DNA of 64,000 nucleotides from Candidatus Omnitrophota bacterium (GCA_903901225.1 CAIUQE010000048.1:5844-69843), one strand, 5' to 3'; positions 19,942 to 37,058 are shown, counted from the first letter of the stretch. Notes: generated by a model not told the origin, from the letters alone. Program-made: numbers and translations.

Positions 19942-19974
19942 CTGCAAACAATAAGTGAATTTATGTTTAGTGGG

Positions 19975-20067
19975 CGTAGGGGAGGCCCTTGTGTCCTCCC
20001 GTTAGTGAATGCGGTTATTTATAATACTCGTTAGGTTTATTGGGCCGACACAAGGTCGGCCCCTACG
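19975..20067 (+). promoter_or_regulatory. structured element: two GC-rich hairpins with mutually complementary cores, bracketed by an 8-nt outer inverted repeat
   Basis: Hairpin 1 is gggagg/cctccc (19980-20000). Hairpin 2 is gggccgac/gtcggccc (20042-20062). ccttgtgtc in hairpin 1 is the exact reverse complement of gacacaagg in hairpin 2. Outer arms are cgtagggg and cccctacg. No U-tract. Confidence 0.4.
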
Positions 20068-20212
20068 TTCTACGATATCCTCTCTGACTGTTAAGCATTA
20101 TATTTTCCCCCTACCCTTGACGCAGCCCTCTTTTATAGTATATATTTATTCTGTCGTCTTTCATTCGTTGACATTTTGGACTATATTTAAAAACCTGAAA
20201 ACAGGAGTTTTT

Positions 20213-23200
20213 ATGGTACGTTCTATTGAAGAATTATCTTGTAAGGCCTTGGTAAGAAAGTCGTTAAGCCTGTTTGTAATGGCCGCTTTCATCTTAACAA
20301 GCCTTGTGCCGCCAACCTATGCCCAGGCCGTATTCAACCTGCCCCAACCGGGTGAGATGATCGGTTTGTCCGGGGTTTATACGCCGGTCGTGCTCAAAGG
20401 CGTCTCCATTCATCCCGAAGACCCCCTTTTATTCGATTTTATCGTTGATAACGGCAATTCTGATCTCAAAGGTCAGGCTTTGACCGATGAGACCACCAAG
20501 CTTGTGAAATATTTCCTGACCGGCCTCGCTGTGCCGGAAAAGGAGCTGTGGGTCAACCTTTCGCCGGTTGAGAACAACCGTATCATGGCCGATGATCTCA
20601 GTCATACGGACGCGGGTCGCGACATGCTGGCGCAGGACTATATCCTCAAGCAGATAACGTCCACTTTGATGTATCCGGAAAAAGACCTTGGCCGCAAGTT
20701 CTGGGATGAGATCTACAGCCGCGTGAACGCGAAATTCGGCACGACCGATATCCCGGTGGACACCTTCAACAAGGTGTGGATCACGCCTGACGTGGCTGAA
20801 GTGTACCAGCACGATGGGAATGCTTTTGTGACCAAGGCGCATTTGAAGGTTATGCTCGAGGCTGATTACAATGCGCTTAACGGTGCCGCGGCCCCCATGG
20901 CTGACGCGGGGAATTCCCAGACCATCGACCTGGCGCGGGATGTGGTGCGTGAGGTGATACTGCCCGTGTTGGAGAAGGAAGTCAACGAGGGCAAGAATTT
21001 CGCGGCCCTGCGGCAGATATTCAATTCCCTGATCCTGGCCGGATGGTACAAGCATGCGTTGAAAGACAGCCTGTTGAACCAGGTTTACGCGGGTACCAAC
21101 AAGGTGGCAGGCATCGATATTGCTGAAAAGAACGCGCGGGAACAGGTTTATGCCCAGTACCTGCAGGCCTACCAGAAGGGTGTTTACAACTATATTAAGG
21201 AAGAGTTCGACAGCACGACAAAGGAGTCCCTGCCGCGTAAGTATTTTTCGGGTGGAGCCGTTCTTGATCGGGCGATGAATCCTGATATAAAAAATAAAAT
21301 TGAACTTGGGTTTGATTTTTTTAGAAAATTAGGGAAAGCACTAACCGTGGTCCCTTTTCAACTTGTTCTTAAGCAGGCACAGAACGCTGTTGAACGTACG
21401 AAAAATAATATTGCCGGAAATAAGACTTCCAAATATTTCGATCTTCCTGAGTTAAGCTCTGACGAGAACAAAGATCTTATCTCGGCTATGAATAGCCCTT
21501 TAGGAATGTCAAGATTTCTGAATTTTGATGGTGTTACATCTGCGTGGGTTATGCCGACAGTGTTGGGTATTTTAGGAATTGTGGCTGAGACAGCGGTTGT
21601 CACATTAGGACAAATACCAATGGATTATAAGTTAGTTGTTAAGAGTGTTCTGCCTTTATACAGTGGTTCGGCTTTGTATACTGCATTATATGCGTATTAT
21701 CGTAGTGCCGCACTTAATGTTGTTCAGGACGATGAAAGAAGTCGTTTGGAAAAACTTCGTGCGGTAATCTTCCTTCGCAAAATTAAAGCTAGGGAGGCTC
21801 TGTGGGATGTTTCCAATAGGGCGAAGTCTGTCGTCACTAAAGTTGCCGGATGGCTTGCCATGGATGATCGAACGCTGCGAGAAATGATCCAGACCGGGGT
21901 ATCCTCTTTTGGAGTACTAAATTATTCACGTATGACCAATCAAGAGAGGGACGCTTTGGCAGGCCAATTGGCCGCAAACAACAATTTTGAAGCCTTGGCG
22001 TTTCTTGCGATTGATCCTCCGACAAGAACCCAAGCGTTGGCATTTTTTCATGGTTGGAGCAATAGTAAAGAAGATGTTCTTGCTATAGGGAAAAATTCTA
22101 TTTTTTCGATAGCTGAGTTCTCGGGTGGGCAAAAAGAACAATTGTTCACAACATTCAGGGCTGTCGTCAACGCTGATTACGCACAGGGAGATACATTGCA
22201 AAAAATGTATTCGAAGAATCTTGACCATGTCCGCAGCGTTCAGATGCTTATCGACAATTTTAAGAAGAAAGACTGGGTACGGATTGAGTTAAATGCTTTG
22301 CGTGATGCGATACGGGATCAGATTGGTTTTGAAGGTTCTTCGGGTAATCTTTCCGGAAATCCTGAACTAACAGCAATGATATTGGAGTTGCAAAAATTAG
22401 TTGATGATAAGGAATTTGAATTATCAACAGGCGTGCAGGAGGATGGCGCGCAGGAGAGCAGGAAACCAGCTAGTCTGGAAGAGGTCAGGTTAGATAAGAT
22501 CTTCTCGAAATACTCTTTAAGTGCCGCTGCTTTTTGGGATGCATATTTCTATTATGTTGAAAAGGTCATTTATCAGGAGACAAAGAACCAGTCATTTGAT
22601 CGCGTTACAAAGTTTAAATCCGTGGGTCTGCGATTGTTAACTCCGATCATTGAAAAAGTAGCCGGTATAGACTCCGGCGTAAGTATTAAAAAGCCGGGAG
22701 AAATACAAAGCTTCTTGGATGAAAAAATCAAGGAATTCAATAAAGACCGGTCACAAACGACGGATTTCGCGGCATCGCCGATCACCCTTTTATTCACGGC
22801 ATTGAGTGCTGCCGAACAACGTGAGGCTGCATTTATTATCGATAACGTAAAACACGGGCTTTTTGGTGATGCGATGGCAGCGGTGGTTTCAAGTGATTCG
22901 AGATTTTCGCCTGCAATTAAACAATTGGCTCTTTGGTTATTAATTCAGCGTTCCTGGAAAGATCCTTATTCTGACCTGGCAACTGACCTTATTAAACAAG
23001 AGATCCGTTATACAATGCCAGAGTTGCGTGCGGTTAACAAAGATGATTTTTCGCCAAAGGATTGGAATGTGATGTTAACCAATAAGTGGATCGATGAGCT
23101 TGGCGTGATCCAGGATGAATTTAAGAAAATCACTGACTATTCAAAGGTGCATTTGGATGGTGTGGAGGACGTAGATGTGCAAAACATTTGTCAGACATTG

Positions 23201-24022
23201 AACGATGAAATTGTCGCGCCAATGTACGATACAGATCTTGTCGTTGCGCATAAAGAGTTGCATTTTAAAAAAGAAGACAGAAAGAAATGGGAAGATGTGG
23301 TCTTTCTTAACGAAACTTCATTGTTCAAACGATATATTGAATTAAGCGGCTCTCAGGAAGAATTTATGGCATTTGTTGATCGTTTTAATGTTAAAAATTT
23401 TAGCAAGAAGCGGTTGGCGCGTTTATTAAATGAGATCAACGCGCAGGTTAATTCCAATCAATATGATGAGGAAAAAAAGATTTTTCTTACAGGATGGAGA
23501 GGGCTGATCGAGCAATTTATTGAGAGTAAGCCCGTGAATGAAGTTTCTGCCCAAGTTAAAATAACAGAACGAGATGATTTTGTGCCTCCATACAGGAGGA
23601 GGATCGATGAGCTCATGCGTGAATCCTTTCCTTCGGGTCAAGATGTTAAGACAGATTCTGGCGAACCTCTTTATAGAAGGCAAATCAATAAACTTATGCA
23701 GAAGAAGAATCTCCCAGGCAGTGATAGTGCCGGGACAGTCGGGACTTCCCAAAAGGATATACAAGGCGGTATCGACCTCGGCCAGGGGGATTATCTCAAG
23801 GTCATTGGCACGGACGCGTCCGGTATGCCGAAGTTCGACCCGGCTCAGCTTATCCAGTTACAGAAGGACCTGCGCGGGATCGTTCCTGTGCCGGTTGGAG
23901 TTCCTCAGCCTGTGAATTTAAAGCCGCTCCTGGGGCTTGACCCCAACAGCGGCAACGAGAACCTCCAGACCGGCCAGCTTGACCCGGTGAAGGTTGAGGC
24001 TGAAGAGGGGGTTCCTTCCTGA
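20213..24022 (+). CDS. giant secreted protein of unknown function (1269 aa), compositionally mosaic
   Basis: Start at ATG 20213 with an aggag RBS. Signal peptide ends AQA. Central nt 21240-23700 is markedly AT-rich relative to both gene ends and to the window. No recognisable catalytic motif. Confidence 0.6.
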   Translation: MVRSIEELSCKALVRKSLSLFVMAAFILTSLVPPTYAQAVFNLPQPGEMIGLSGVYTPVVLKGVSIHPEDPLLFDFIVDNGNSDLKGQALTDETTKLVKYFLTGLAVPEKELWVNLSPVENNRIMADDLSHTDAGRDMLAQDYILKQITSTLMYPEKDLGRKFWDEIYSRVNAKFGTTDIPVDTFNKVWITPDVAEVYQHDGNAFVTKAHLKVMLEADYNALNGAAAPMADAGNSQTIDLARDVVREVILPVLEKEVNEGKNFAALRQIFNSLILAGWYKHALKDSLLNQVYAGTNKVAGIDIAEKNAREQVYAQYLQAYQKGVYNYIKEEFDSTTKESLPRKYFSGGAVLDRAMNPDIKNKIELGFDFFRKLGKALTVVPFQLVLKQAQNAVERTKNNIAGNKTSKYFDLPELSSDENKDLISAMNSPLGMSRFLNFDGVTSAWVMPTVLGILGIVAETAVVTLGQIPMDYKLVVKSVLPLYSGSALYTALYAYYRSAALNVVQDDERSRLEKLRAVIFLRKIKAREALWDVSNRAKSVVTKVAGWLAMDDRTLREMIQTGVSSFGVLNYSRMTNQERDALAGQLAANNNFEALAFLAIDPPTRTQALAFFHGWSNSKEDVLAIGKNSIFSIAEFSGGQKEQLFTTFRAVVNADYAQGDTLQKMYSKNLDHVRSVQMLIDNFKKKDWVRIELNALRDAIRDQIGFEGSSGNLSGNPELTAMILELQKLVDDKEFELSTGVQEDGAQESRKPASLEEVRLDKIFSKYSLSAAAFWDAYFYYVEKVIYQETKNQSFDRVTKFKSVGLRLLTPIIEKVAGIDSGVSIKKPGEIQSFLDEKIKEFNKDRSQTTDFAASPITLLFTALSAAEQREAAFIIDNVKHGLFGDAMAAVVSSDSRFSPAIKQLALWLLIQRSWKDPYSDLATDLIKQEIRYTMPELRAVNKDDFSPKDWNVMLTNKWIDELGVIQDEFKKITDYSKVHLDGVEDVDVQNICQTLNDEIVAPMYDTDLVVAHKELHFKKEDRKKWEDVVFLNETSLFKRYIELSGSQEEFMAFVDRFNVKNFSKKRLARLLNEINAQVNSNQYDEEKKIFLTGWRGLIEQFIESKPVNEVSAQVKITERDDFVPPYRRRIDELMRESFPSGQDVKTDSGEPLYRRQINKLMQKKNLPGSDSAGTVGTSQKDIQGGIDLGQGDYLKVIGTDASGMPKFDPAQLIQLQKDLRGIVPVPVGVPQPVNLKPLLGLDPNSGNENLQTGQLDPVKVEAEEGVPS

Positions 24023-24146
24023 GCCATGGTTTATTAAAAAATATTGGCAATCTGTCCGGGTATAGTGTATATTGTAGGTACTTAAGGCAGTAAGTTAGTT
24101 CAATGACGCTTATATTTTCGTAACAATCAGGAAAGGCAGGTATATT

Positions 24147-24236
24147 ATGGCTGAATGGAAAGAAGACAAGCCGATCAAGATCAACCAGGCTCAGCGCGAG
24201 ATCTTCGGTTGGGATAATATCGATATTCTCATCTGA
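24147..24236 (+). CDS. small protein gene (29 aa, MAEWKEDKPIKINQAQREIFGWDNIDILI)
   Basis: Has its own RBS aggaaaggcagg. Candidate promoter TTGGCA-N18-TATATT at 24044-24073. Intrinsic terminator immediately downstream. Confidence 0.4.
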   Translation: MAEWKEDKPIKINQAQREIFGWDNIDILI

Positions 24237-24261
24237 AGATATTTTGATCTCGATCCTAAAG

Positions 24262-24292
24262 CCCTGTAAGGAAAAAACTTACGGGGTTTTTT
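24262..24292. terminator. bidirectional rho-independent terminator between the small ORF (+) and queH (-)
   Basis: Hairpin ccctgtaagg-aaaaaa-cttacgggg followed by tttttt. Confidence 0.6.
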
Positions 24293-24837
24293 CATTTCAG
24301 GATCGAGTACTCACAGCCGCAGTATTTTTGCCGGTAGAAGTCCTCTCTCTTTGAAACAGCCTGCATCCGTTCAATGCCTTTGCCCTTGCGCCAGTCCCTA
24401 TCAAGGAAGGCAAGCCCCGCATAGGGGGCCACGGCATTAACCCCGGCCAGCCGTACCTGCCGGGGGTCTTTCCAGCGGGAAATGCCATTGGTCGTGGCCA
24501 GCGCCTTAAAGCCGTTATCATGGGCATATAATGCAGCCCGTTCAAGGCGCATATCAAAGCAAACCTGACAACGGCGGCCGCGTTCCTTTTCATCTTCAAG
24601 CCCTTTGACCCGCAGCATCCATTTATCCGGGTCGTGGTCCGCGTCAATGAAAGGGACGCCTTTTTTGACAGAAAAGCGCTTTACCTCAGCTTTACGGCGT
24701 TCATATTCTTCGAACGGGTGGATATTGGGGTTATAGAAATAGAGGGTCAGTCCCTGGCCTTCATCCAGCAGGGTCTCGATGATCCCGGCTGAGCATGGCG
24801 CGCAACAAACGTGCAGGAGAAGGTCGGTGGATGGCAT
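24292..24837 (-). CDS. queH: epoxyqueuosine reductase QueH (DUF208)
   Basis: LLHVCCAPCS motif and conserved C-terminal CGCEYS. Confidence 0.8.
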   Translation of the reverse strand: MPSTDLLLHVCCAPCSAGIIETLLDEGQGLTLYFYNPNIHPFEEYERRKAEVKRFSVKKGVPFIDADHDPDKWMLRVKGLEDEKERGRRCQVCFDMRLERAALYAHDNGFKALATTNGISRWKDPRQVRLAGVNAVAPYAGLAFLDRDWRKGKGIERMQAVSKREDFYRQKYCGCEYSILK

Positions 24838-28973: not shown

Positions 28974-31280
28974 CTAATAAATGATGTTCATCAGGAATTT
29001 CAAGAGGGTCATGTGCCTGGCAAGGAGGCGCTTCATTTCGGACGGGGCGGCATCCATGATCCTGACAGGCAAAAACGGGTTCGCTCCTTGCTTTAGAAGA
29101 GTCTTGACAATAACGCTGTTGTTGCGTTTGACGGCCAAAGCGAGCGCCGAGTTCCCCGCTTTGTTCATCGGTGTGACGTCCGCCCGATGGCCCAGTAACA
29201 GAGCGACCACATCCGCGGCGTCCGCGTCGACGGCCAGCATGAGGGGCGTATTGCCATCGTTGCTGGCCACATTGACAAGGGCTCCTGAGCTGACCAGCAA
29301 CAAAGCACACTCAATGCTGCCGGCGTGCGCGGCGAAAGACAAGGCCGTATGGCCTTCGTTGTTGCGGCGCGTTGTATCAGCTTTGCGCCCAAGAAGGAAT
29401 TTAACGGCCTCCTGGTGACCGTTCTCGGCGGCGATCATGAGCGCGGTGCGGCCCGACGCGTCGCTGGTGTTGATATCCATTTTTCGCGCGAGGAAGATAT
29501 CGATGAGATCAACGTCTCCCATCTTGACAGCGGCCAGGAACGGCCCCAATGCGCCGCCAGATGTCATGTCCCAGCTGGCCCCGGCATTTAAAAGCAACTT
29601 GGCAACGGGGCCGTGGCCGTTGGCAATGGCCTCAGCCAGGGCCTTGTCAAAAACGCGCGGGAATTTTTCGTGGCTGCCATATTCCTGGATAAGGCGGTTG
29701 ACCACGGCTTCATGGCCATTACCCGCCGCAAGGATCAAGGGCGAAGTTTTTTCCGGGTTGAGCCCGTCATTCACGCGTGCTCCGGCTTTGAGCAGGCGCG
29801 CGACAATATCCAGGTTGCCACGCCATGCGGCCCGGCTTAGCGGTGTCTGACCTTCTGTATCAGTCGCGTTGACATCAGCCCCCTGGAGGATCAAAAGGTC
29901 GACGATATCCTTTTCCCCTCGCCATACGGCCAGGATGAGGGGCGTTCTTGTCGCCGTGGTTTTTAAAAGAGAAGGATCGACCCCGGTAGACGGCAACATA
30001 ACTTTACCTGTGGCCAGGAGGGCCTCACTGACATCTTTATACCCTTTCAGTAAAGCGATGGATAAGGCATTCTCGTGGTTGCTGGTGGTCCGGGTGACAT
30101 CCGCTCCCTGGTTGATGAGGAACTTGACCATGGGAAGGTCGTCCTGCCAGGCTGCCAGCATCAAAGGTGTCAGGCCTTTAGTATTGGGGAAATCGATCTT
30201 GCTGCCGGCTTTTAGCAGCATTTCGGCTGACGTGAAGTCTTTCTTTTGCACCGCAAGCAGCAGCGCGTTGTCACCGTCATTACTGAGGATGTCGGGGTCA
30301 GCTCCTTTTCGGATGACGTCGGGAAGCCATGCCGTCAGGCCGCGCGCCACGGTTTCCATGAGAGCCGTGCGTCCGTTGCGGTCTTTGTAATTGATGTTCA
30401 GGCCAGCCGCGATGATCCGGTCAAAATCATCTTTGCGCGCGTTCCTGATCGCTGATAAGAAAAGTTCTTCGCGCGGCAGGTCAGGGTCGTTCTGGCCCCA
30501 CCGGGCCTGCTGTTGTATTGTTTTTAGCCTTTCGATCGCCGGACTGAACCCCTTACCCGCGGCTCTTGTGTACCAGGACAAGGCGTCCTGATAGCTTGAA
30601 GCGGTCCCTTTGCCAGTTTCGATGAGCTGTCCCAGCCGGTATTCAGATTCAAGGTCCCCTTGATCAGCAAGGGTTTTATAGAGGTTCACGGCTAGCGCGA
30701 AGTCTTTGTTGTTGACGGCTTGCATGGCCCTGTCATGCAGTTGTTGCTGCGATGAAAGTATGGCCGATGGCTTGAGGGCATTTATGGTTTCAGAGGAAGA
30801 TGTTTCTTTGATCCGAAGAGATGTCGTGCCGTTAATCTTGATATCCGCCAGGCGGTCGACAGCGGGGGTGTAATTCTGGCCGGCTGATTTTTTATACCAG
30901 GATAAGGCTTCGGGAATACCCTGAAGCACTCCCCGGCCGGATTCGAGCATGGAGGCGACATTGAATTGGGCTTTGGCGTTGCCTTTTTCAGCAGCCTTTT
31001 TATACCATGAAAAAGCCGTCGGGTAGTCTTTGGGAACTCCCTTCCCTGTCTCGTAAAGAGCGCCGAGTTGGTATAGCGCGTCGGGATCGCCCTGATCGGC
31101 CAGGCCGGAATATAGCGTAAGCGCAAGTGTGTAATCTCTCGCGCGGATCGCACGCCTGGCTTCATCCATTGGCGATGGCCTGGAGGGAATATCCTGGGCG
31201 CGGGCATCGAGCCCAACGCCCAGGATAAGTAACGGGATAACGGCGGATACACAACGCCGCCATGACCGAGCATGCGACAT
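28974..31280 (-). CDS. secreted Sel1-like-repeat plus ankyrin-repeat protein
   Basis: Signal peptide. Sel1-like repeats (YQLGALYETGKGVPKDY...; EYRLGQLIETGKG). About 13 ankyrin repeats (GRTALM..A...G..DVV..LL..GAD). Start chosen at the ATG at 31280 (MSHARS), which has a ggaga RBS. Confidence 0.7.
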   Translation of the reverse strand: MSHARSWRRCVSAVIPLLILGVGLDARAQDIPSRPSPMDEARRAIRARDYTLALTLYSGLADQGDPDALYQLGALYETGKGVPKDYPTAFSWYKKAAEKGNAKAQFNVASMLESGRGVLQGIPEALSWYKKSAGQNYTPAVDRLADIKINGTTSLRIKETSSSETINALKPSAILSSQQQLHDRAMQAVNNKDFALAVNLYKTLADQGDLESEYRLGQLIETGKGTASSYQDALSWYTRAAGKGFSPAIERLKTIQQQARWGQNDPDLPREELFLSAIRNARKDDFDRIIAAGLNINYKDRNGRTALMETVARGLTAWLPDVIRKGADPDILSNDGDNALLLAVQKKDFTSAEMLLKAGSKIDFPNTKGLTPLMLAAWQDDLPMVKFLINQGADVTRTTSNHENALSIALLKGYKDVSEALLATGKVMLPSTGVDPSLLKTTATRTPLILAVWRGEKDIVDLLILQGADVNATDTEGQTPLSRAAWRGNLDIVARLLKAGARVNDGLNPEKTSPLILAAGNGHEAVVNRLIQEYGSHEKFPRVFDKALAEAIANGHGPVAKLLLNAGASWDMTSGGALGPFLAAVKMGDVDLIDIFLARKMDINTSDASGRTALMIAAENGHQEAVKFLLGRKADTTRRNNEGHTALSFAAHAGSIECALLLVSSGALVNVASNDGNTPLMLAVDADAADVVALLLGHRADVTPMNKAGNSALALAVKRNNSVIVKTLLKQGANPFLPVRIMDAAPSEMKRLLARHMTLLKFLMNIIY

Positions 31281-31314
31281 TCCTGGATCTCCCATAAAAA
31301 GCACAATGCTATTA

Positions 31315-33540
31315 CTAAAAGATCAGCCTGTACCCGGTAGTAATGAACATTTCACGCGATTTGGACTTAATGCCCGACGCGATCTCGCTGACCCACTCTG
31401 TTCCGCCGTCAATTTCCAGTGTCGCGAACTTTGTCAGGCTGTACTCCAGGCGCATTTCGGGACGATAAGCCCAGCGTTCGTCGGCTGACGCTTTCGTGTC
31501 TTTAAAGTCCGTATGAAAACGCGGATTGATCCTGGTTTTGGCCGTCAGCGGGTAACGCGCGTTGAGGTTGAACGCGTAATCATAATATGTTTGCGCGTCG
31601 GTGAACACCAGGCCCGGGATCAAAGAGTCCTGCTCTTTGATAAGGTTGCTGATGTTCAGTTCGGTTGAATAGGTCCAGTCCGGCCCTGTTGAATTGGAGC
31701 CTTCAACCCCGCCGGACGTGATCATACCTTCGAGCGCGGAGACCGAGACTTCACCCGTCCACTGGAGATTTTCCCTGATGTCCTGGCTCACACCGGCCGT
31801 GGCCGACTTGCTGTTCGTCGAGCGGTCAATGGCCAGTTGGCGCAGCTCTTTTCTGGTATAAGTGGACTTAAGGTCGGATATATTCGCGACACCCATCCCC
31901 TGGATCGCGTTGTTCGTTGTGATCAAAGGCGACTTGCGGTAGTCTGCCGTCAAGCTGAGCGTGGTCTTTGTCGGCAAGGTGTAACGCATGTTGGTGGACG
32001 CGATATTGAGCCTCTGGAAATATGTATCATAATCGACAAGTGTGAAGAGCGATTTTTTCCGGTCAAAATACCTGACCTCGCCGCCCACCGCCTGGCGGTC
32101 CGTCAAGCCTGAATTCTGCTGGGCAATGGCAAAGGTATTGAATGTCCAGCGCGCTTTGGGGATCCCCCAGTCGATGTTGATCCCTTCGAACAGTTTCTGC
32201 GTGATCACCCGTGATATTTTCACGCTATCAACCGGATAACCGCTGACAACGTTGAGCTTTATCCCTGGGGTTATCTGCTTGGACACATGGACACCGTCAA
32301 AACGACCCAATACGCCGCCCGTTGAGAGTGTCTGGCGTCCGGCGCGCGCGTAGAAACCGAGTTTTTTGGACTTGATATCAACGGCCATGGCGCTCAAGCG
32401 ATTCTCATTCTTGCTGCCGCTGAGGTAATTCTGTGTTTTTCCACCGCTGAAACGCGCCTTGATCTCGAGGTCCCGGCTCTTCCACCGCCCGTTGATATCA
32501 ACGTCGCTGGCAAGGTTGTTCAACGTGTCGTTTTGTTTGCTTCCTTTGATCTTTAACATGTCCCTGTAATAGTACTGGGACGCGCTGCCGAAATACTGCG
32601 ATGACCACACGGACTCGGCGATCTTTCTGCTGGCGCCGGCAGGTTCCTTGAGAGGGGCCTGGGCGGCCTGGGTGGAGGTAACAACACCCGCCAGGCGTTG
32701 ACGGACACGGTCGGCGTCGGGGCCTTCGGGATATTCTTTAAGGTACTGGCTGTATTCAGCGGCCGCGTGGGCCAGTTGCTTGTTGCGTTCCCGCGCGACA
32801 CCCAACAATTCCCGCGCCTGTTTTTTCAATTCTCCTTGAGCTGTCAGAAGGACTTTCAAATATAGCTGGACCGCGGCGTCATAATCAGGCTTCACCAGCG
32901 CATCTTTGGCTTCCCGCATGAGCGAAGATTCAGGCTGGTCTAGAGGGGCTTCAGGCAATGCCAATTCCCCTGCTTTCCTGGCTTCGAGCCCGGCCCCCTG
33001 CGGCGGCTGGGCTGTAGTTACCCTGATGGTCACGGTTTTCATATCCGCGCTGTCATGCACATCGATCGTAACATCTTCGTTAAAATCGAGGATGATCTGC
33101 GGGTTTTCCGTGTCATTGCCATCGAAAGTGATATTGTTCAACGGGATGCCTGAGGAGTGATCCCAGGAAGGGATCAGGTTCGAATGGATGATGTCGAGAT
33201 CCTCCTGGTCCAGTTTTGAATGGTCGACGGTCTTTAACTGGATGTAGAACTTGCTCGCTTTCCCGGAGGGTGACGCATTCTTGAAGCGGTAGGAATAGAG
33301 CGAGTTCATCTCGATCTTGTAACCTTCGGAAATTGTCTGGATCTTGATATCTTCCATGGCGCCGGCATAAGCAGGTACGACGGAAAGTAACCAAATGCTT
33401 AGGAAGACTGTTAATGATCTGACGCCGTTGGCCAGTGTTTCTTGAAGAAAAGTTTTATTCACGAACGTTGAGCCGGATATATTTTTTATAGTGAGCACGA
33501 TAGTCTTTCTTACTTGTTGAATGTTCTTGTTGAGTGACAC
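31315..33540 (-). CDS. outer-membrane protein: N-terminal TPR-like helical region plus C-terminal beta-barrel
   Basis: Signal-peptide-like segment. Helical repeat region. Alternating amphipathic C-terminal half ending in the aromatic residue ...YRLIF. The listed start overlaps the upstream cytochrome by 31 nt; an alternative GTG at 33462 would avoid the overlap. Confidence 0.5.
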   Translation of the reverse strand: MSLNKNIQQVRKTIVLTIKNISGSTFVNKTFLQETLANGVRSLTVFLSIWLLSVVPAYAGAMEDIKIQTISEGYKIEMNSLYSYRFKNASPSGKASKFYIQLKTVDHSKLDQEDLDIIHSNLIPSWDHSSGIPLNNITFDGNDTENPQIILDFNEDVTIDVHDSADMKTVTIRVTTAQPPQGAGLEARKAGELALPEAPLDQPESSLMREAKDALVKPDYDAAVQLYLKVLLTAQGELKKQARELLGVARERNKQLAHAAAEYSQYLKEYPEGPDADRVRQRLAGVVTSTQAAQAPLKEPAGASRKIAESVWSSQYFGSASQYYYRDMLKIKGSKQNDTLNNLASDVDINGRWKSRDLEIKARFSGGKTQNYLSGSKNENRLSAMAVDIKSKKLGFYARAGRQTLSTGGVLGRFDGVHVSKQITPGIKLNVVSGYPVDSVKISRVITQKLFEGINIDWGIPKARWTFNTFAIAQQNSGLTDRQAVGGEVRYFDRKKSLFTLVDYDTYFQRLNIASTNMRYTLPTKTTLSLTADYRKSPLITTNNAIQGMGVANISDLKSTYTRKELRQLAIDRSTNSKSATAGVSQDIRENLQWTGEVSVSALEGMITSGGVEGSNSTGPDWTYSTELNISNLIKEQDSLIPGLVFTDAQTYYDYAFNLNARYPLTAKTRINPRFHTDFKDTKASADERWAYRPEMRLEYSLTKFATLEIDGGTEWVSEIASGIKSKSREMFITTGYRLIF

Positions 33541-36500
33541 GCGCCACAGTCTTGTGTGGTACGCGGATGATCATGCGACTTTCCAGTGATCTGGATGCCG
33601 TCATGCGATTGTCCATCATGGCAGCTGGAACAAGTTCCGGATGCATCTGAATGGTTGAATTTGCTGCTTGAAACATTCCAACTTGAGGTCAAATGGCAAT
33701 TGCCGCAATTATTGGTGGTATTTAAATGGGAAGCTCCTTTTCCTGTAGCTTTTGATCCGTTATGGCACGAGGAACATGTTCCCGTGACCGCTGTATGATC
33801 AACGCGTGCTACCGGTGTCCAGGCCACGGTCGAGTGGCAACTGTTGCAGGTGCTCGCGGAACTGATGTGGTTAGCCGATTTGCCTGTAGCGGATGATCCG
33901 TTGTGGCAGGTGGAACATGCCGCAGAAACGCCGCCATGGTCAAAAACCGCGGGGGTCCAGGCATTGGTGTTGTGGCAGGCGTCACAGCTCGTCGATGTCG
34001 GGATGTGCGTGGCGTTCTTACCCGGAGCCGTCGAGCCGTTATGGCAACTGGAGCATGACCCTGTCACCGAGGTGTGGTCTACCCTTGAGACAGAGCTCCA
34101 GGAAACGGTCGTATGGCAGTTATTGCAAATATTGTTCGTCGTGATATGGGTCGGAGGCTTACCGCTCGCGCTTGTGCCATTATGGCAATTCGCGCATGAA
34201 CCGCTCACCGCGTTGTGGTCCATCCGCGTCACGGGGGTCCAGGCCGAGGTCGAATGACAGCTGTCGCAGGTCGTTGCCGAAGCAATATGGTTTGGCGATT
34301 TCCCGGTGGCCGTGGTGCCATTATGGCAGCTTGAACAAGAGCCGCTGACCCGCGAGTGATCCAGGCGTGACACGGCCCAGCTCGATGTTGTGTGGCAGGA
34401 GTCACAGGACGCTGATGTTGCGATATGGTTCCCCGGCTTCCCTGTCGCCGTTGAGCCATTGTGACAGTTCGCGCAGGTGCCGGTCGCCGCGGCATGGTCC
34501 ATGCGGGTGACGGGCGACCAGGCTGAGGTTGAATGGCAACTGTCGCAGGTTGTTGCGGAGGCGATATGATTGGCCGGCTTCCCCGAGGCGGTCGTGCCGT
34601 TATGGCAGCTGGAACATGTGCCGCTGACCTTGGAGTGGTCCAGACGTGACACGGTCCAGCTCGACGTTGTATGGCAGGCGTCACAGGCCGCGGATGTGGT
34701 GATGTGATTTGCAGGTTTTCCTGTCGCCGCCGACCCGTTGTGGCAGTTGGCACATGTGCCGGTCACCGCGGCATGGTCCATGCGGGTGACGGGCGTCCAG
34801 GCTGTGGTCGAATGACAGCTGTCGCAGGTCGTCGCGGAGGCGATGTGGTTCGCCGATTTTCCCGGTGCCGTTGTGCCGTTATGGCAGCTGGAACACGTCC
34901 CGCTGAGCTTGGAATGGTCCAGCCGGGACACGGTCCACGATGATGTCGTATGGCAGGCGTCACAGGCGGCGCTTGTGGCAATGTGCGTGCCCGGCTTGCC
35001 TGTGGCGGCTGATCCATTATGGCACGCGGCGCACGCTCCTGTCACCGCCGCGTGATCAAGCCTCATCACGGGTGACCACGCCGTTGTCGAATGGCAACTG
35101 TTACATGTTGCCGCGGAACTTATGTGCGTGGGAGATTTTCCGGTCGCGGTCGTTCCGTTGTGGCAGCTTGAACAACTGCCGCTTACCTTGCTGTGGTCCA
35201 GCGATGTCACGGCCCAGTTGTTGGTGCCATGGCAGGCGTCACAGCTGGCGCTCGTGGCGATATGTGTGGGCGATCTTCCCGTAGCGGCAGACCCGTTGTG
35301 GCAGCTCGCGCAGGTTCCTGTCGCCGCCGTATGGTCCATCCTTGCCAGCGGGGTCCAGGCTGATGTGGTGTGACAACTGTTGCAGGTTGTTGCGGCAGCG
35401 ATGTGCGTTGGCGATTTTCCTGTCGCTGTAGTACCGTTATGACAACTCGCGCAGGTCCCGCTGGCCTTGGTGTGGTCAAATGAAGATACCGCCCAACTGT
35501 TGATGCTGTGGCATGAATCACAGCTGGCGCTTGTGGCAATGTGGGTGGCGGTCTTGCCCGGCGCCGTTGATCCGTTGTGGCATGATGCGCATGTTCCGCT
35601 AACGGACGCATGGTCCATTTTTGTCAAGGGGGTCCAGGCCGAGGTTGAATGGCAACTGTTACAGGTCGTCGCGGAACTGATATGCGTCGCGGACTTGCCC
35701 GTCGCGGACGTCCCGTTATGGCAGCTCGCGCAGGTCCCGGTGACCTTGTTATGGTCAAGTGAGGCCGCTGCCCAAGTGGTTGTGCTGTGACAGGAATCAC
35801 ACGTGGCACTGGTGGCGACATGTTTGGCAGGCTTGCCTGTGGAGATGGTCCCGTTATGGCAGCTTGCGCAGGTCCCGGTCACGGCCGCGTGGTCCATTTT
35901 TGTCAACGGCGTCCAGGCTGATGTGGCGTGGCAACTGTTACAGGTCGTCGCGGTGCTGATATGTGTGGCTGACTTACCTGCCGCGGACGTCCCGTTATGG
36001 CAACTGGCGCACGCGCCGCCGCCGGTCTTGTTGTGGTCAAATGATGATACAGCCCAGCTGTTGACGCTGTGGCAGGCATCGCAGCCGGTTGATGTGGCAA
36101 TATGCCGGGCCGGCTTCCCTGTCGCGGCGCGCCCGTTATGGCAATTCGCGCACGTGCCGATACCGGCCGCATGATCCATCTTGGTCAGGGGTGTCCAGCC
36201 GGTTGTCGTATGGCAACTGTTGCAGGTTGCCGTCGAACTTATGTGTGACGGAGATTTTCCCTGCGCGGTCGTCCCGTTGTGGCAACTGGCGCATGTCCCG
36301 GATGCTCTTTTGTGGTCGAAAGAAGCCACGGCCCAGCTGTTGGTGGTGTGACACGTGTCGCAGGCATCGTTGGTCAGGATGTGACGGGACGGTTTTCCTG
36401 TCGCGGTCGTCGTATTGTGGCAACTGGCACATGTCCCTGATGCCCTGGAGTGATCGAACTTTTTGACGGCCCAGCTGTTGGTGGTATGGCACACTTCACA

Positions 36501-37058
36501 GCCATCGGTCGTGACAATATGGCTTATCGGCCGGCCCGTGGCATTCTGGCCGTTATGGCAGCGGGCACAAACGCCGATGACCTTACTGTGATCAAATTTA
36601 ACCTTGGTCCAGCTGGAAGTGACATGGCAGGTGTCACAGTTGGCAACTGTCGGGACGTGCCCGATGTCCTTCCCGCCCGCTGTTGTCCCGTTGTGGCAGT
36701 TGAGGCATGAGCCGATCACCGCGTTATGGTCAACCGAAACATTGCTGCTGAAATTTGTTGATGAATGGCAATCCTGGCAGCGTTCGCTGCTCCTGATGTG
36801 GTTGACAGGCTTTGACATGGCCTGGATGCCCGCGCCTGAAGTGTGGCAGCCGTCACAGGTGTTGGGCGTGTTCTTGAAGCGGCCTTGCGCGTGGCACGTC
36901 TCACATGTCAGCCCGGCATGGGCCCCGGTGATGGCAAAGCCCGTCGTGTTGTGGTCGAACGTTCCGGTATCAGCCTGTGCTCCTGCAGGAAGCAGCGCCA
37001 GGACGAAAGCCAGCGCCCATGTCATGAAAGCCAAAAGGTTTATTCGTTTATCGCTCAT
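33510..37058 (-). CDS. secreted giant multiheme c-type cytochrome (49 CxxCH motifs in 1182 aa)
   Basis: Signal peptide ends AQA. I counted 49 CxxCH motifs. Most of the protein is built from tandem ~47-aa diheme repeats. ATGA overlap with the upstream 27-heme gene. Confidence 0.85.
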   Translation of the reverse strand: MSDKRINLLAFMTWALAFVLALLPAGAQADTGTFDHNTTGFAITGAHAGLTCETCHAQGRFKNTPNTCDGCHTSGAGIQAMSKPVNHIRSSERCQDCHSSTNFSSNVSVDHNAVIGSCLNCHNGTTAGGKDIGHVPTVANCDTCHVTSSWTKVKFDHSKVIGVCARCHNGQNATGRPISHIVTTDGCEVCHTTNSWAVKKFDHSRASGTCASCHNTTTATGKPSRHILTNDACDTCHTTNSWAVASFDHKRASGTCASCHNGTTAQGKSPSHISSTATCNSCHTTTGWTPLTKMDHAAGIGTCANCHNGRAATGKPARHIATSTGCDACHSVNSWAVSSFDHNKTGGGACASCHNGTSAAGKSATHISTATTCNSCHATSAWTPLTKMDHAAVTGTCASCHNGTISTGKPAKHVATSATCDSCHSTTTWAAASLDHNKVTGTCASCHNGTSATGKSATHISSATTCNSCHSTSAWTPLTKMDHASVSGTCASCHNGSTAPGKTATHIATSASCDSCHSINSWAVSSFDHTKASGTCASCHNGTTATGKSPTHIAAATTCNSCHTTSAWTPLARMDHTAATGTCASCHNGSAATGRSPTHIATSASCDACHGTNNWAVTSLDHSKVSGSCSSCHNGTTATGKSPTHISSAATCNSCHSTTAWSPVMRLDHAAVTGACAACHNGSAATGKPGTHIATSAACDACHTTSSWTVSRLDHSKLSGTCSSCHNGTTAPGKSANHIASATTCDSCHSTTAWTPVTRMDHAAVTGTCANCHNGSAATGKPANHITTSAACDACHTTSSWTVSRLDHSKVSGTCSSCHNGTTASGKPANHIASATTCDSCHSTSAWSPVTRMDHAAATGTCANCHNGSTATGKPGNHIATSASCDSCHTTSSWAVSRLDHSRVSGSCSSCHNGTTATGKSPNHIASATTCDSCHSTSAWTPVTRMDHNAVSGSCANCHNGTSASGKPPTHITTNNICNNCHTTVSWSSVSRVDHTSVTGSCSSCHNGSTAPGKNATHIPTSTSCDACHNTNAWTPAVFDHGGVSAACSTCHNGSSATGKSANHISSASTCNSCHSTVAWTPVARVDHTAVTGTCSSCHNGSKATGKGASHLNTTNNCGNCHLTSSWNVSSSKFNHSDASGTCSSCHDGQSHDGIQITGKSHDHPRTTQDCGACHSTRTFNK
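33940..36450 (-). repeat. in-frame tandem array of ~141-bp coding repeats (about 17-18 units, several nearly identical)
   Basis: Repeating protein unit CASCHNGTxATGKxxxHIATSAxCDxCHxTxxWTPVTRMDHAAVTGT. Adjacent double units (~280 bp) are almost identical at the DNA level. Confidence 0.8.

What the first reader, a model, noticed from the sequence alone, without database searches (positions are those of the whole stretch)
20213..24022. Compositionally mosaic 1269-aa secreted giant protein of unknown function
The first ~340 codons and the last ~90 codons have the GC-rich composition of the window. The central ~2.5 kb (about 21240-23700) is strongly AT-rich (Lys/Asn/Ile/Phe-rich protein) with no recognisable domain. 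This fits a foreign segment inserted in-frame into a resident secreted-protein gene, or a recently fused gene. The gene has a strong RBS and a signal peptide. It is flanked upstream by a structured element and downstream by a small terminated gene.
Basis: seen in the sequence. Interest (0 to 1): 0.6.

Follow-up and report, generated by a model that had tools for sequence, protein, structure and literature searches.

The report
Variable-core exported protein family of Omnitrophota
The AT-rich middle of this 1269-residue exported protein is not a recent foreign insert but the fast-evolving variable core of a very large, undescribed Omnitrophota protein family, in which two conserved end modules bracket an interchangeable middle that is AT-richer at silent codon positions across the whole family.

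Summary
The ORF 20213-24022 has GC3 0.69 in its first 341 and last 83 codons and 0.39 in between. The shift is in codon usage, not amino acids, and nothing else in the 64 kb goes this low.

The two change-points fall on the borders of two conserved modules: a ~310-residue N-module behind a Sec-type signal peptide, and a ~60-residue C-terminal module. At least 3997 proteins share them, nearly all named ones from Omnitrophota. Neither module matches Pfam, NCBIfam or PDB. In relatives the middle carries phosphoglucomutase, glucose-6-phosphate isomerase, kinases, TPR or ankyrin repeats. Here it is an orphan with one clear membrane segment.

Syntenic orthologs have the same architecture. The N-module is 91% identical and flanking genes are 75-89%, but the middle is only 30-40%. 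Silent-site divergence in the proximal middle equals that of the flanks, so it is not a recent insertion. The distal middle changes its nearest relative, which indicates recombination.

The sandwich pattern recurs in 75-102 family genes (p about 1e-11 to 1e-16). The cause of the low GC3 and the protein's function remain inferred.

The parts
19970..20067 (+). Long imperfect hairpin (GCGTAGGGG...CCCCTACG) between the TatD-like gene and the promoter.
   Evidence: Fold energy -51.8 kcal/mol, z = -3.1. It occurs once in the window. It is absent from the shorter intergenic region of the ortholog locus L001. It is probably not part of the gene's own machinery.
20117..20146 (+). Sigma-70-like promoter (TTGACG, 18 nt, TATATT), followed by a conserved 5' leader.
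   Evidence: Scores 10 of 12 in the consensus scan. The block from about 110 nt upstream to the ATG aligns with L001 and with the non-syntenic relative L002.
20203..20207 (+). Ribosome-binding site AGGAG, 5 nt before the ATG at 20213.
   Evidence: Read directly from the sequence. Conserved in L001 and L002.
20213..24022 (+). The whole coding sequence: 1269 codons plus the stop.
   Evidence: A protein differing only at I269V is on record from an independent 33.7-kb contig.
20213..20329 (+). Sec-type signal peptide, residues 1-39. It has basic residues (R15, K16), a hydrophobic core (LSLFVMAAFILTSLV), then PPTYAQA. Cleavage after AQA is inferred.
   Evidence: Hydropathy peak at residues 14-32. 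The family consensus here is PP...AQ..LNLP.PG. The cleavage site was read by eye; no dedicated predictor was run.
20330..21256 (+). Conserved N-module, residues 40-348, ending in PRKYFSGG. GC3 is about 0.69.
   Evidence: 50-77% identical to more than 100 listed relatives and 91% to the syntenic ortholog. There are 43 invariant columns among 48 sequences. dN is 0.053, the lowest among the genes compared. The AlphaFold2 model has mean pLDDT 78.7 and is mixed alpha/beta with three beta-hairpins. No match in Pfam, NCBIfam, PDB sequences or Foldseek-PDB.
21257..23770 (+). Variable middle ('cargo'), residues 349-1186. GC3 is 0.39 and no domain is recognisable.
   Evidence: GC3 change-points fall at codons 341 and 1186. 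Only 2 hits were found among 1.84 billion representative proteins. It is 30-40% identical to syntenic orthologs whose flanking genes are 75-89% identical. dN is 0.55 against 0.05-0.16 elsewhere.
21542..21616 (+). Hydrophobic membrane-spanning segment, residues 444-468. A weaker second segment follows at about 474-492.
   Evidence: Kyte-Doolittle 19-residue mean of 1.88; the second segment reaches 1.24. The orthologs P0002 and P0004 each show two strong segments at the matching place. A helical hairpin is the more likely reading.
23771..23962 (+). Conserved C-module, residues 1187-1250: GGIDLGQGDYLKVIGTDASGMPKFDPAQLIQLQKDLRGIVPVPVGVPQPVNLKPLLGL. GC3 is back to about 0.65-0.69.
   Evidence: The GG[IV]D[LFM] motif occurs in 96 of 120 relatives, 36-95 residues from the C-terminus. 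An HMM of this module finds it in 75 of 83 N-module genes with a complete 3' end. A median of 6 residues follows it. Nucleotide similarity to L019 (79%) begins at 23753.
24147..24236 (+). Downstream 29-codon ORF (MAEWKEDKPIKINQAQREIFGWDNIDILI). It is a neighbour, not part of the protein.
   Evidence: A 29-residue gene is called in the other two syntenic loci as well. It is nearly identical in nucleotides to L019, whereas the neighbouring genes are 79% identical. dS is 0.07 against about 1.
24258..24290 (+). Terminator-like hairpin followed by a T-run, after the small ORF.
   Evidence: 13-pair stem, conserved in L019.

Best explanation
The gene belongs to a very large, Omnitrophota-specific and apparently undescribed family of exported modular proteins. 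Its layout is: Sec signal peptide, a strongly conserved ~310-residue N-module ending in ...PRKYFSGG, a variable middle, then a conserved ~60-residue module starting GGIDL at the extreme C-terminus.

What is shown:
- The compositional breaks lie exactly at the two module borders.
- The middle is a resident, vertically inherited part of the gene. It changes amino acids about 5-10 times faster than the ends and the neighbouring genes (dN 0.55 against 0.05-0.16).
- Pieces of the middle are occasionally exchanged between related lineages.
- Across the family, the middle sits at a lower silent-site G+C than both the end modules and the surrounding genome. This holds even where it contains well-conserved enzyme domains.

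What is inferred about composition: the low GC3 is a standing local equilibrium, not an unameliorated foreign signature. The most likely cause is that bacterial mutation is AT-biased, and the force that keeps GC3 high elsewhere acts weakly on a hypervariable segment. That force would be GC-biased gene conversion during homologous recombination, or selection on codons.

What is inferred about function:
- The signal peptide takes the protein across the inner membrane.
- The N-module, under the strongest purifying selection, and the C-terminal module act as constant handling or anchoring parts, such as envelope docking or a sorting signal.
- The middle is the lineage-specific working part.
- In this gene the middle is an orphan region held in the membrane, probably by a helical hairpin. 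It is likely exposed in the envelope and diversifies through contact with hosts, prey or phages.
For: Family and modules:
- At least 3997 relatives share the N-module; all but one of the 18 source-named hits in the top 120 are labelled Omnitrophota or Omnitrophica.
- BLAST shows conservation confined to residues ~13-348 and ~1157-1267.
- The C-module is present in 96 of 120 relatives and in 75 of 83 complete N-module genes.
- Other members' middles carry phosphoglucomutase, glucose-6-phosphate isomerase, enolase, response-regulator, NDK, guanylate kinase, FBPase, GH77, TPR and ankyrin domains.

Borders: GC3 change-points at codons 341 and 1186 coincide with PRKYFSGG (341-348) and GGIDL (1187).

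Not a recent insert:
- The syntenic ortholog has the same architecture.
- Four-fold-site identity between window and L001 is 43-48% in flanks, 48% in the N-module, and 47-61% in middle codons 349-750. Chance gives about 27%.
- NG86 dS is 1.2-2.1 in flanks, 1.10 in the N-module and 1.29 in the middle.
- Middle GC3 is 0.39, 0.44, 0.44 and about 0.40 in four homologous copies, against backgrounds of 0.59-0.70.

Family-wide pattern:
- N-module minus post-N-module region (C-module not separated in most genes): mean +0.085 (65 of 102 genes above +0.05, 2 below -0.05; p = 6e-16).
- Background minus post-N-module region: +0.073 (p = 2e-11).
- N-module against background: not significant.
- C-module minus middle: +0.105 (56 of 75 genes; p = 4e-11).
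- Pfam-recognised enzyme domains inside the middle are just as low.

Recombination in the middle: L001 is nearest to the window at 551-750 (52% against 32% with L019) but nearest to L019 at 951-1040 (63% against 31%).

Not an assembly artefact: an independent contig encodes the same protein with one substitution. Flanks on both sides are syntenic in one relative.
Against: - The cause of the low GC3 was not tested directly. Neither recombination rates nor polarised substitution spectra could be measured.
- Synonymous divergence between the compared genomes is high (dS about 1.1-2), so the dS comparison has limited power. The four-fold counts in the distal middle are small (6-26 sites).
- Low GC3 in conserved enzyme domains of the same mRNA argues against simple relaxed constraint.
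- About a third of family genes show little or no mosaic.
- Function is inferred from architecture only. No structural or sequence relative of either module was found.
- No conserved neighbouring gene points to a partner machine; no neighbour family recurs in more than 8 of 99 loci.
- Membrane topology is unsettled (one segment or two). With a single span, the C-module would be cytoplasmic.
- Export of ATP- and sugar-phosphate-dependent enzymes in other members is hard to reconcile with a purely extracellular role.
Confidence: 0.6

Rival explanations
1. A foreign, AT-rich DNA segment was recently inserted in frame into a resident secreted-protein gene, or two genes fused recently. On this view the low G+C is the donor's unameliorated signature.
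For: - The borders are sharp and the codon usage differs completely from every other gene in the window.
- The middle has almost no homologs.
Against: - The syntenic ortholog has the same architecture.
- Silent-site divergence in the proximal middle equals that of the flanks (dS).
- The same GC3 of about 0.4 is kept in four diverged copies.
- A crude two-state amelioration estimate was made from the observed roughly 50% four-fold identity. It is my own inference, not a tool result. It would require a starting GC3 near 0.1, lower than any background seen in the family (minimum 0.25).
- No terminal repeats or mobility genes lie at the borders.
- No phage-family hit was found.
Confidence: 0.07
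2. Cassette turnover. The conserved N- and C-modules act as homology arms, and middles are repeatedly replaced by recombination from a pool circulating among Omnitrophota. On this view the low G+C reflects the composition of that pool.
For: - Window against L019: flanks are 79% identical in nucleotides from 23753 onward, with no similarity upstream. Four-fold identity in the middle is 27.5%, which equals chance.
- The nearest relative switches along the middle.
- The tandem paralogs in L075 share the N-module (76-86%) and C-module (61%) but have unalignable middles of different length.
- P0003 and P0004 have 93% identical N-modules but partly non-matching middles.
- The change-points lie exactly at the module borders.
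Against: - A shared pool should make middles regress towards the phylum mean. Middles in AT-rich genomes would then be GC-richer than their background. Instead they are at or below background in every GC bin (+0.04 to +0.10).
- The proximal middle of window and L001 co-diverged with the genome.
- No silent cassette copies exist within the 64 kb.
Confidence: 0.22
3. The low GC3 is selected for. AT-ending, rarer codons in the middle would slow or tune translation, or lower mRNA structure, to help co-translational export and folding of long exported proteins. The end modules would be translated with ordinary codons.
For: - The pattern is family-wide, independent of what the middle encodes, and returns to normal in the last ~60-90 codons.
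- It affects all amino acids alike.
Against: - There is no direct evidence.
- About a third of members lack the pattern, including close homologs in GC-rich genomes (L008, L009, L013, L014).
- The size of the shift (0.28 in GC3) is far larger than known codon-tuning effects; this rests on my own knowledge.
Confidence: 0.08
4. Assembly chimera. The metagenome assembler joined reads of a lower-GC organism to this genome at the conserved N- and C-modules.
For: The window comes from an uncultured-organism assembly, and the two modules are repeated in many genes and organisms.
Against: - An independent contig encodes the same protein with one substitution.
- Three other assemblies show the same arrangement at the same locus or in the same clade.
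- The modules are only about 79% identical in nucleotides even between close relatives. That is too low for exact k-mer joins; this last step is inference.
- The artefact would have to occur twice per gene, in frame.
Confidence: 0.03

Closest known systems
Long and giant Omnitrophota proteins ('Archaeovorins'; West-Roberts et al. 2023 preprint, doi 10.1101/2023.11.21.568195; 2026 preprint 10.64898/2026.06.07.730766)
   Same: - Same phylum.
- Signal peptide and/or membrane segments.
- N-terminal regions without identifiable domains.
- The same unusual set of embedded domains as in this family's middles: phosphoglucomutase, glucose-6-phosphate isomerase, FBPase, pyruvate phosphate dikinase, HEAT, TPR, radical SAM, response regulator, GT5.
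- N-module genes in L021, L023 and L078 run for 3000 or more codons past the module without reaching a stop within the stored locus.
   Different: - This protein has 1269 residues, not tens of thousands.
- Its middle has none of those domains.
- In the passages I searched and read, neither paper describes the conserved N-module / C-module bracket or a codon-composition mosaic.
- Whether true Archaeovorins start with this N-module was not tested.
Polymorphic toxin / effector proteins (CdiA, Rhs, MafB type; Zhang, Aravind and colleagues)
   Same: - A constant trafficking part joined at a short, sharply defined motif to a highly variable part that differs between close strains.
- The variable part is exchanged by recombination.
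- In those systems the variable part is typically AT-richer than the rest of the gene (from my own knowledge).
- There are many paralogs per genome, some in tandem.
   Different: - The variable part here is internal, bracketed by conserved modules on both sides.
- No toxin domain and no adjacent immunity gene were found.
- The cargo of relatives is metabolic enzymes and repeat scaffolds, not nucleases or deaminases.
- No T5, T6 or T7 trafficking domain was detected.
Type IX secretion cargo proteins with a C-terminal sorting domain (Bacteroidota)
   Same: The logic of two signals is shared. An N-terminal Sec signal peptide is paired with a short conserved domain at the extreme C-terminus, and diverse passengers sit in between. 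The C-module here is about 60 residues with a median 6-residue tail.
   Different: - No sequence match to Pfam or NCBIfam models, which include the T9SS sorting domains.
- There is an additional 310-residue conserved N-module, which T9SS cargo lacks.
- The phylum is different, and no T9SS genes were seen near any locus.
ORFan-like, fast-evolving AT-rich genes and hypervariable surface-protein genes of bacteria (Daubin and Ochman 2004; mosaic surface antigens)
   Same: - Fast amino-acid change, few homologs and lower G+C than the genome.
- Mosaic ancestry along the gene.
   Different: Here the behaviour is confined to an internal segment of a single reading frame, between two modules that are among the most conserved sequences in the neighbourhood. 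It also recurs systematically across a family.

Membership tests
Omnitrophota N-module / C-module bracketed family (unnamed; defined here) | Conserved ~310-residue N-module with invariant WVNLSP.E, DY.LKQ, FNK.W, E.E.N....F...RQ and KYF.GG motifs | tested here: met
   50-77% identity to the listed relatives. All 43 invariant columns are present in the window protein.
Omnitrophota N-module / C-module bracketed family (unnamed; defined here) | C-terminal GGIDL...FDPA...G..PV...P......LLG module within about 90 residues of the end | tested here: met
   Residues 1187-1250, 55-91% identical to relatives.
Omnitrophota N-module / C-module bracketed family (unnamed; defined here) | N-terminal signal peptide preceding the N-module | tested here: met
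   Hydropathy peak at residues 14-32, basic residues before it and AQA after it. This matches the family consensus. It was read by eye; no dedicated predictor was available.
Omnitrophota N-module / C-module bracketed family (unnamed; defined here) | Variable middle with depressed GC3 relative to both modules | tested here: met
   GC3 is 0.39 against 0.69. The family-wide differences are +0.085 (N-module minus post-N region, 102 genes) and about +0.10 for each module against the middle (75 genes).
Archaeovorin-type giant proteins | Giant length (tens of thousands of residues) with many HEAT, GT and TPR domains | tested here: not met
   1269 residues and no Pfam domain at E <= 1.
Archaeovorin-type giant proteins | Shared N-terminal region with the type protein of Velamenicoccus archaeovorus | not tested
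   The type sequence was not retrieved. Only the papers' text was read.
Recently acquired foreign DNA (genomic islet) | Atypical composition | tested here: met
   GC3 is 0.39 against 0.64 +/- 0.055 for the other ORFs.
Recently acquired foreign DNA (genomic islet) | Absent from orthologous loci of related genomes | tested here: not met
   A homologous middle is present in the syntenic loci of P0002/L001 and P0121/L019.
Recently acquired foreign DNA (genomic islet) | Insertion scars: flanking direct repeats, integrase or transposase genes, a tRNA target | tested here: not met
   No repeat joins the two borders. The neighbouring genes are housekeeping genes. A tRNA scan was not run.
Polymorphic toxin systems | Recognisable toxin domain plus an adjacent immunity gene | tested here: not met
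   No Pfam, PADLOC or PHROG domain was found; the only hit was a chance-level Csm5 match. The 29-residue downstream ORF is conserved while the middle varies, which is the opposite of what a cognate immunity gene would show.
T9SS cargo (C-terminal sorting domain) | Match to the curated C-terminal sorting-domain models | tested here: not met
   No Pfam or NCBIfam hit anywhere in the protein apart from LipL46 at E = 0.03.
Leptospira LipL46 lipoprotein family (NF033164) | Score above the curated cut-off (400 bits), with the hit shared by family members | tested here: not met
   13-16 bits. Among 48 family members, LipL46 did not appear in the table of families matched, in which every listed family had a single member.

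The most novel reading that the evidence does not exclude
The N-module / C-module bracket is a phylum-wide cargo-handling system of host-dependent Omnitrophota nanobacteria. It would export or display whatever is placed between the two modules. That includes complete cytoplasm-type enzymes (phosphoglucomutase, glucose-6-phosphate isomerase, enolase, phosphoglycerate kinase, nucleotide kinases), delivered to the periplasm, the cell surface, or into host or prey cells. The middles would form a rapidly diversifying, recombining effector repertoire with its own silent-site composition. The window's gene would be one enzyme-less, membrane-anchored member.
Probability: 0.15. Interest if true: 0.85.

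Novelty: new variant of a known kind. Interest (0 to 1): 0.6.

Why it matters
Omnitrophota are widespread, uncultured, ultra-small bacteria thought to depend on hosts or prey. How they interact with other cells is an open question.

This locus exposes a family of at least several thousand proteins that has no entry in Pfam or NCBIfam and no solved or Foldseek-detectable structural relative. The family has a simple grammar: signal peptide, constant N-module, variable middle, constant C-terminal module. The two modules give a direct handle for cataloguing the variable repertoire in any Omnitrophota genome. They also help frame the puzzle, already raised for the giant 'Archaeovorins', of why glycolytic and nucleotide-handling enzymes sit behind export signals.

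Separately, the silent-site mosaic within single reading frames is sharp and reproducible. The ends match the genome and the middle is AT-richer, in about two thirds of members. This makes a clean natural test case for what maintains G+C content in bacteria: biased gene conversion, codon selection, or gene flow.

Tried and rejected
- **Domain and structure searches on the whole protein.** Pfam gave nothing at E <= 1. NCBIfam gave only LipL46 at 13-16 bits, not shared by other members, so rejected as chance. PADLOC gave Csm5 at 15 bits in a charged stretch, rejected. PHROGs gave nothing. PDB sequence search with the single protein gave nothing. The family profile hit only low-complexity or coiled-coil proteins in the variable columns.
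- **Searches with parts of the protein.** A word-indexed search with the middle alone returned only the protein itself. The same search with the C-module alone returned four short fragments. Neither was informative.
- **Second structure job.** Full-length P0005 gave moderate confidence (pLDDT about 70-75) for the start of the C-module. The tool returns no contacts or PAE, so the idea that the C-module docks on the N-module could not be tested.
- **Concerted evolution of N-modules among paralogs** as the reason for their higher GC3 was rejected. Paralogs in one genome are only 49-64% identical, while orthologs are 95-98%. N-module GC3 also equals the background.
- **Amino-acid composition as the cause of AT-richness** was rejected.
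- **Relaxed protein constraint alone** was rejected, because Pfam-recognised enzyme domains in other members' middles are equally low.
- **Internal or border repeats** were not found.
- **Paralogs or silent cassettes in the window** were not found.
- **A conserved neighbouring partner gene** was not found.
- **Literature searches** for a description of the two modules found none.

Full report
**1. The observation**

The ORF 20213-24022 (+) encodes 1269 residues. It has AGGAG 5 nt before its ATG and a promoter-like TTGACG-18-TATATT at 20117-20146.

Sliding G+C is 0.53-0.57 over 20300-21200, falls to 0.37-0.46 over about 21200-23750, and returns to 0.52-0.56. The window averages about 0.54, and 21-24 kb is its lowest stretch.

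The shift lies almost entirely at third codon positions. GC3 is 0.675 / 0.392 / 0.655 for the N-terminal, middle and C-terminal parts, while GC2 is 0.345 / 0.344.

A two-change-point likelihood fit on GC3 puts the breaks at codon 341 (support 338-355) and codon 1186 (support 1159-1189). These are positions 21236 and 23771. The log-likelihood gain is 50.7.

Every amino acid uses fewer G/C-ending codons in the middle. With its own amino acids and the neighbours' codon preferences, the middle would have GC3 0.65; the observed value is 0.37. Lys+Asn+Ile+Phe is only 24.1% against 21.1%.

The other 49 ORFs of the window have GC3 0.52-0.75. No 300-codon stretch in them falls below 0.55.

**2. What the borders are**

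A search of 5.8 billion proteins found at least 3997 relatives. Of the 18 top hits that carry a source name, all but one are labelled Omnitrophota or Omnitrophica. BLAST shows that similarity is confined to residues ~13-348 (50-77% identity) and ~1157-1267 (55-75%). Only the nearest relatives align in between.

The N-module ends with the nearly invariant ...PRKYFSGG at residues 341-348. The C-module begins with GGIDL at residue 1187. Its consensus is GGIDLn...fdPa...Gf.PVI..P..n...LLG. The motif occurs in 96 of 120 relatives, 36-95 residues from the end. The compositional change-points therefore coincide with the two module borders.

In 99 loci fetched from genomes and metagenomes, profile searches gave these counts:
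- 115 ORFs carry the N-module.
- Of the 83 with a complete 3' end, 75 also carry the C-module.
- A median of 6 residues follows the C-module.

The middle differs from member to member. It can contain a complete phosphoglucomutase, glucose-6-phosphate isomerase, enolase, phosphoglycerate kinase, NDK plus guanylate kinase, FBPase plus GH77, a response-regulator receiver, or TPR, ankyrin or HEAT repeats. In many members it contains nothing recognisable.

Twelve loci carry more than one N-module gene. Paralogs within a genome are old, with N-modules 49-64% identical, whereas orthologs between sister genomes are 95-98% identical.

**3. The parts of this protein**

- *Signal peptide.* Residues 1-39 look like a Sec signal peptide: basic residues, a hydrophobic core at 14-32, then PPTYAQA. 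This was read by eye.
- *N-module.* It has no match in Pfam, NCBIfam, PDB sequences (single sequence or family profile) or Foldseek-PDB. The weak LipL46 hit is not shared by other members. AlphaFold2 with a 48-sequence alignment gives a mixed alpha/beta model with mean pLDDT 78.7.
- *Middle.* It has one clear hydrophobic span at residues 444-468 and a weaker one at about 474-492. The orthologs P0002 and P0004 have two strong spans there, so a helical hairpin is likely. Apart from that the middle is an orphan, with only two hits among 1.84 billion representative proteins.
- *No mobile-element or defence signal.* There is no phage or defence-system match of any weight. No repeats link the two borders. 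No copy of any part exists elsewhere in the window.

**4. Is the middle foreign or recent?**

Three related assemblies carry the gene.

*P0002 / L001.* This copy lies in the same gene order: POR, T2SS ATPase, GT4, GlgE, GHL10, DUF6941, TatD, the gene, a 29-residue ORF, QueH, HAD, NAD kinase. Flanking proteins are 75-89% identical to the window's. The N-module is 91% identical and the C-terminal ~70 residues are about 70%. Identity drops in one step, from 90% at residues 301-350 to 38% at 351-400, and averages 38-40% across the middle.

Third-position identity at four-fold sites under identical amino acids compares as follows:

| Region (window vs L001) | Four-fold identity |
|---|---|
| Flanking genes | 43-48% |
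| N-module | 48% |
| Middle, codons 349-750 | 47-61% |
| Chance expectation | about 27% |

NG86 estimates agree. dS is 1.2-2.1 in flanks, 1.10 in the N-module and 1.29 in the middle. dN is 0.07-0.16, 0.053 and 0.55 respectively. The proximal middle has therefore been in the gene since before these genomes separated, and it changes amino acids 5-10 times faster.

*P0121 / L019.* This copy is followed by the same 29-residue ORF and QueH. It is 79% identical in nucleotides from window position 23753 onward and shows no nucleotide similarity upstream. Its middle is 29-31% identical in protein. Its four-fold identity is at chance level, 27.5% against 64-66% in its C-module and QueH.

*Switch of nearest relative.* Along the middle the nearest relative changes. 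At residues 551-750, L001 is closest to the window (52% against 32% with L019). At 951-1040, L001 is closest to L019 (63% against 31% with the window). This is a recombination signature inside the middle.

*Shared composition.* All copies keep a low middle GC3: 0.39 in the window, 0.44 in L001, 0.44 in L002 and about 0.40 in L019. Their backgrounds are 0.59-0.70.

*Amelioration estimate (my own inference).* I applied a crude two-state calculation to the observed roughly 50% four-fold identity. A segment acquired before the split and evolving under the genome's own regime would have closed about half of its GC3 gap. That implies an implausible starting GC3 near 0.1. The low GC3 is therefore better read as a local equilibrium than as a fading foreign signature.

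*Assembly chimera.* This is unlikely. An independent 33.7-kb contig encodes the same protein with one substitution. The arrangement also recurs in other assemblies.

**5. The pattern is family-wide**

| Comparison (GC3) | Genes | Mean difference | Above +0.05 / below -0.05 | Wilcoxon p |
|---|---|---|---|---|
| N-module minus post-N region | 102 | +0.085 | 65 / 2 | 6e-16 |
| Neighbouring genes minus post-N region | 88 | +0.073 | 57 / 4 | 2e-11 |
| N-module minus neighbouring genes | 88 | +0.012 | 21 / 14 | 0.11 |
| C-module minus middle (HMM borders) | 75 | +0.105 | 56 / 3 | 4e-11 |

Further points:
- Pfam-recognised enzyme or repeat domains inside the middle (PGM, receiver, NDK, guanylate kinase, ankyrin, FBPase, GH77) are as low as the unannotated remainder. 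The last 90 codons return to the N-module level in all five genes examined.
- The deficit is present in every background-GC bin (+0.04 to +0.10) and never reverses in AT-rich genomes. This argues against simple regression towards a shared gene pool.
- About a third of members show little or no mosaic.
- The window's gene, with a difference of 0.28-0.30, is among the most extreme.

**6. Interpretation**

*Shown.* The mosaic marks the module structure of a large family. The middle is a resident, hypervariable and occasionally recombining segment, not a recent insert.

*Inferred for composition.* Bacterial mutation is AT-biased, and the force holding GC3 up elsewhere acts weakly in the middle. 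GC-biased gene conversion is my preferred candidate. It requires homologous recombination between similar alleles, which a hypervariable segment rarely offers. It would also affect conserved enzyme domains within the middle equally. Weaker codon selection and continuing cassette influx remain possible.

*Inferred for function.* The protein is exported. The constant N-module is the most strongly conserved sequence in the neighbourhood. Together with the extreme C-terminal module, it would serve handling, anchoring or sorting, while the middle is the lineage-specific working part. In this gene the middle is an orphan region, membrane-anchored probably by a hairpin, that diversifies quickly. No neighbouring gene family recurs in more than 8 of 99 loci, so context offers no partner machine.

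**7. Relation to what is known**

Two preprints on Omnitrophota long and giant proteins ('Archaeovorins') report signal peptides or membrane segments, N-terminal regions without identifiable domains, and the same odd set of embedded domains: PGM, PGI, FBPase, PPDK, HEAT, TPR, radical SAM and receiver. They note the puzzle of glycolytic enzymes predicted outside the cell. In the passages I searched and read, neither describes the N-/C-module bracket or the codon mosaic. Seymour et al. 2023 contains none of the searched terms on N-termini, signal peptides or fusions.

N-module genes in L021, L023 and L078 continue for 3000 or more codons. The family may therefore grade into the giants.

By analogy, the architecture resembles polymorphic toxins (constant trafficking part, sharp junction, variable AT-richer part) and T9SS cargo (Sec signal plus C-terminal sorting domain). 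The defining features of both were tested and not met.

**8. Verdict**

The gene is a member of an undescribed, phylum-wide modular family, and its compositional sandwich is systematic. The function and the cause of the low GC3 remain inferences.

Noticed in passing
window 24125-24290 (ORF 24147-24236, hairpin 24258-24290); L019 2555-2720: The 29-codon ORF, its leader and its terminator hairpin are nearly identical in nucleotides between the window and L019, while adjacent genes are about 79% identical. dS is 0.07 against about 1. Rfam gives a sub-threshold full-length match to the trpB motif (RF04312) at 24202-24298: 39.8 bits against a gathering score of 59, E = 0.004. Conservation at this level suggests a structured RNA or a regulatory leader rather than, or in addition to, a small protein.
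   Followed up: partly
window 19970-20067: A roughly 100-nt imperfect hairpin (fold z = -3.1) sits between the TatD-like gene and the promoter of the big gene. It is absent from the ortholog locus L001, whose intergenic region is about 135 nt shorter. It occurs once in the window. It may be a terminator or an inserted small repeat element.
   Followed up: partly
window 20100-20212; L001 5890-6000; L002 5890-6000: The promoter-like hexamers and a leader block (GTCTTTCATTCGTTGACATTTTG ... AACAGGAG) are conserved upstream of the gene in L001. They are also conserved in L002, which lies in a completely different gene neighbourhood. The regulatory region therefore travels with the gene.
   Followed up: partly
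L019 1-2453 (P0121): This syntenic relative appears to lack the signal peptide and N-module. The called gene starts about 60 residues before the membrane segments. An in-frame stop and a near-consensus promoter (TTGACG-17-TATAAT) lie in the 176 nt upstream, where the contig ends. Four other internal 'C-module only' ORFs were seen (L005, L062, L068, L094). These may be split genes, frameshifts or true N-less variants.
   Followed up: partly
L005 1716-8003; L059 1333-7287; L085 4757-12538; proteins P0007, P0008, P0011, P0012, P0016, P0024, P0035, P0106, P0112: Complete cytoplasm-type enzymes sit between the N- and C-modules, behind a signal peptide. They include phosphoglucomutase, glucose-6-phosphate isomerase, hexokinase, transketolase, phosphoglycerate kinase, enolase, NDK, guanylate kinase, FBPase and 4-alpha-glucanotransferase. 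P0007, P0008, P0011, P0012, P0016, P0024 and P0035 show no further hydrophobic segment after the N-module at the threshold used; the others were not individually listed. Where these enzymes act is unexplained.
   Followed up: partly
L075 (three genes, N-modules starting at 4474, 9082 and 14299); L008 (three genes); L045, L053, L066, L024, L049, L072: Family genes often lie in tandem. The two adjacent L075 paralogs share the N-module (76-86%) and the C-terminal ~90 residues (61%), but their middles differ in length and cannot be aligned.
   Followed up: partly
L021, L023, L078: ORFs that begin with the N-module run for 3000 or more codons and leave the stored locus without a stop. The module therefore also heads very long proteins, possibly the giant Omnitrophota proteins described in preprints.
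   Followed up: no
window 28977-37058 (- strand): Three long ORFs lie back to back on the minus strand: 782, 751 and 1182 codons. One carries Sel1 and ankyrin repeats and two have no Pfam hit on record. All have ordinary GC3 (0.64-0.67), so large size or repeat content does not by itself bring low GC3 in this genome.
   Followed up: no
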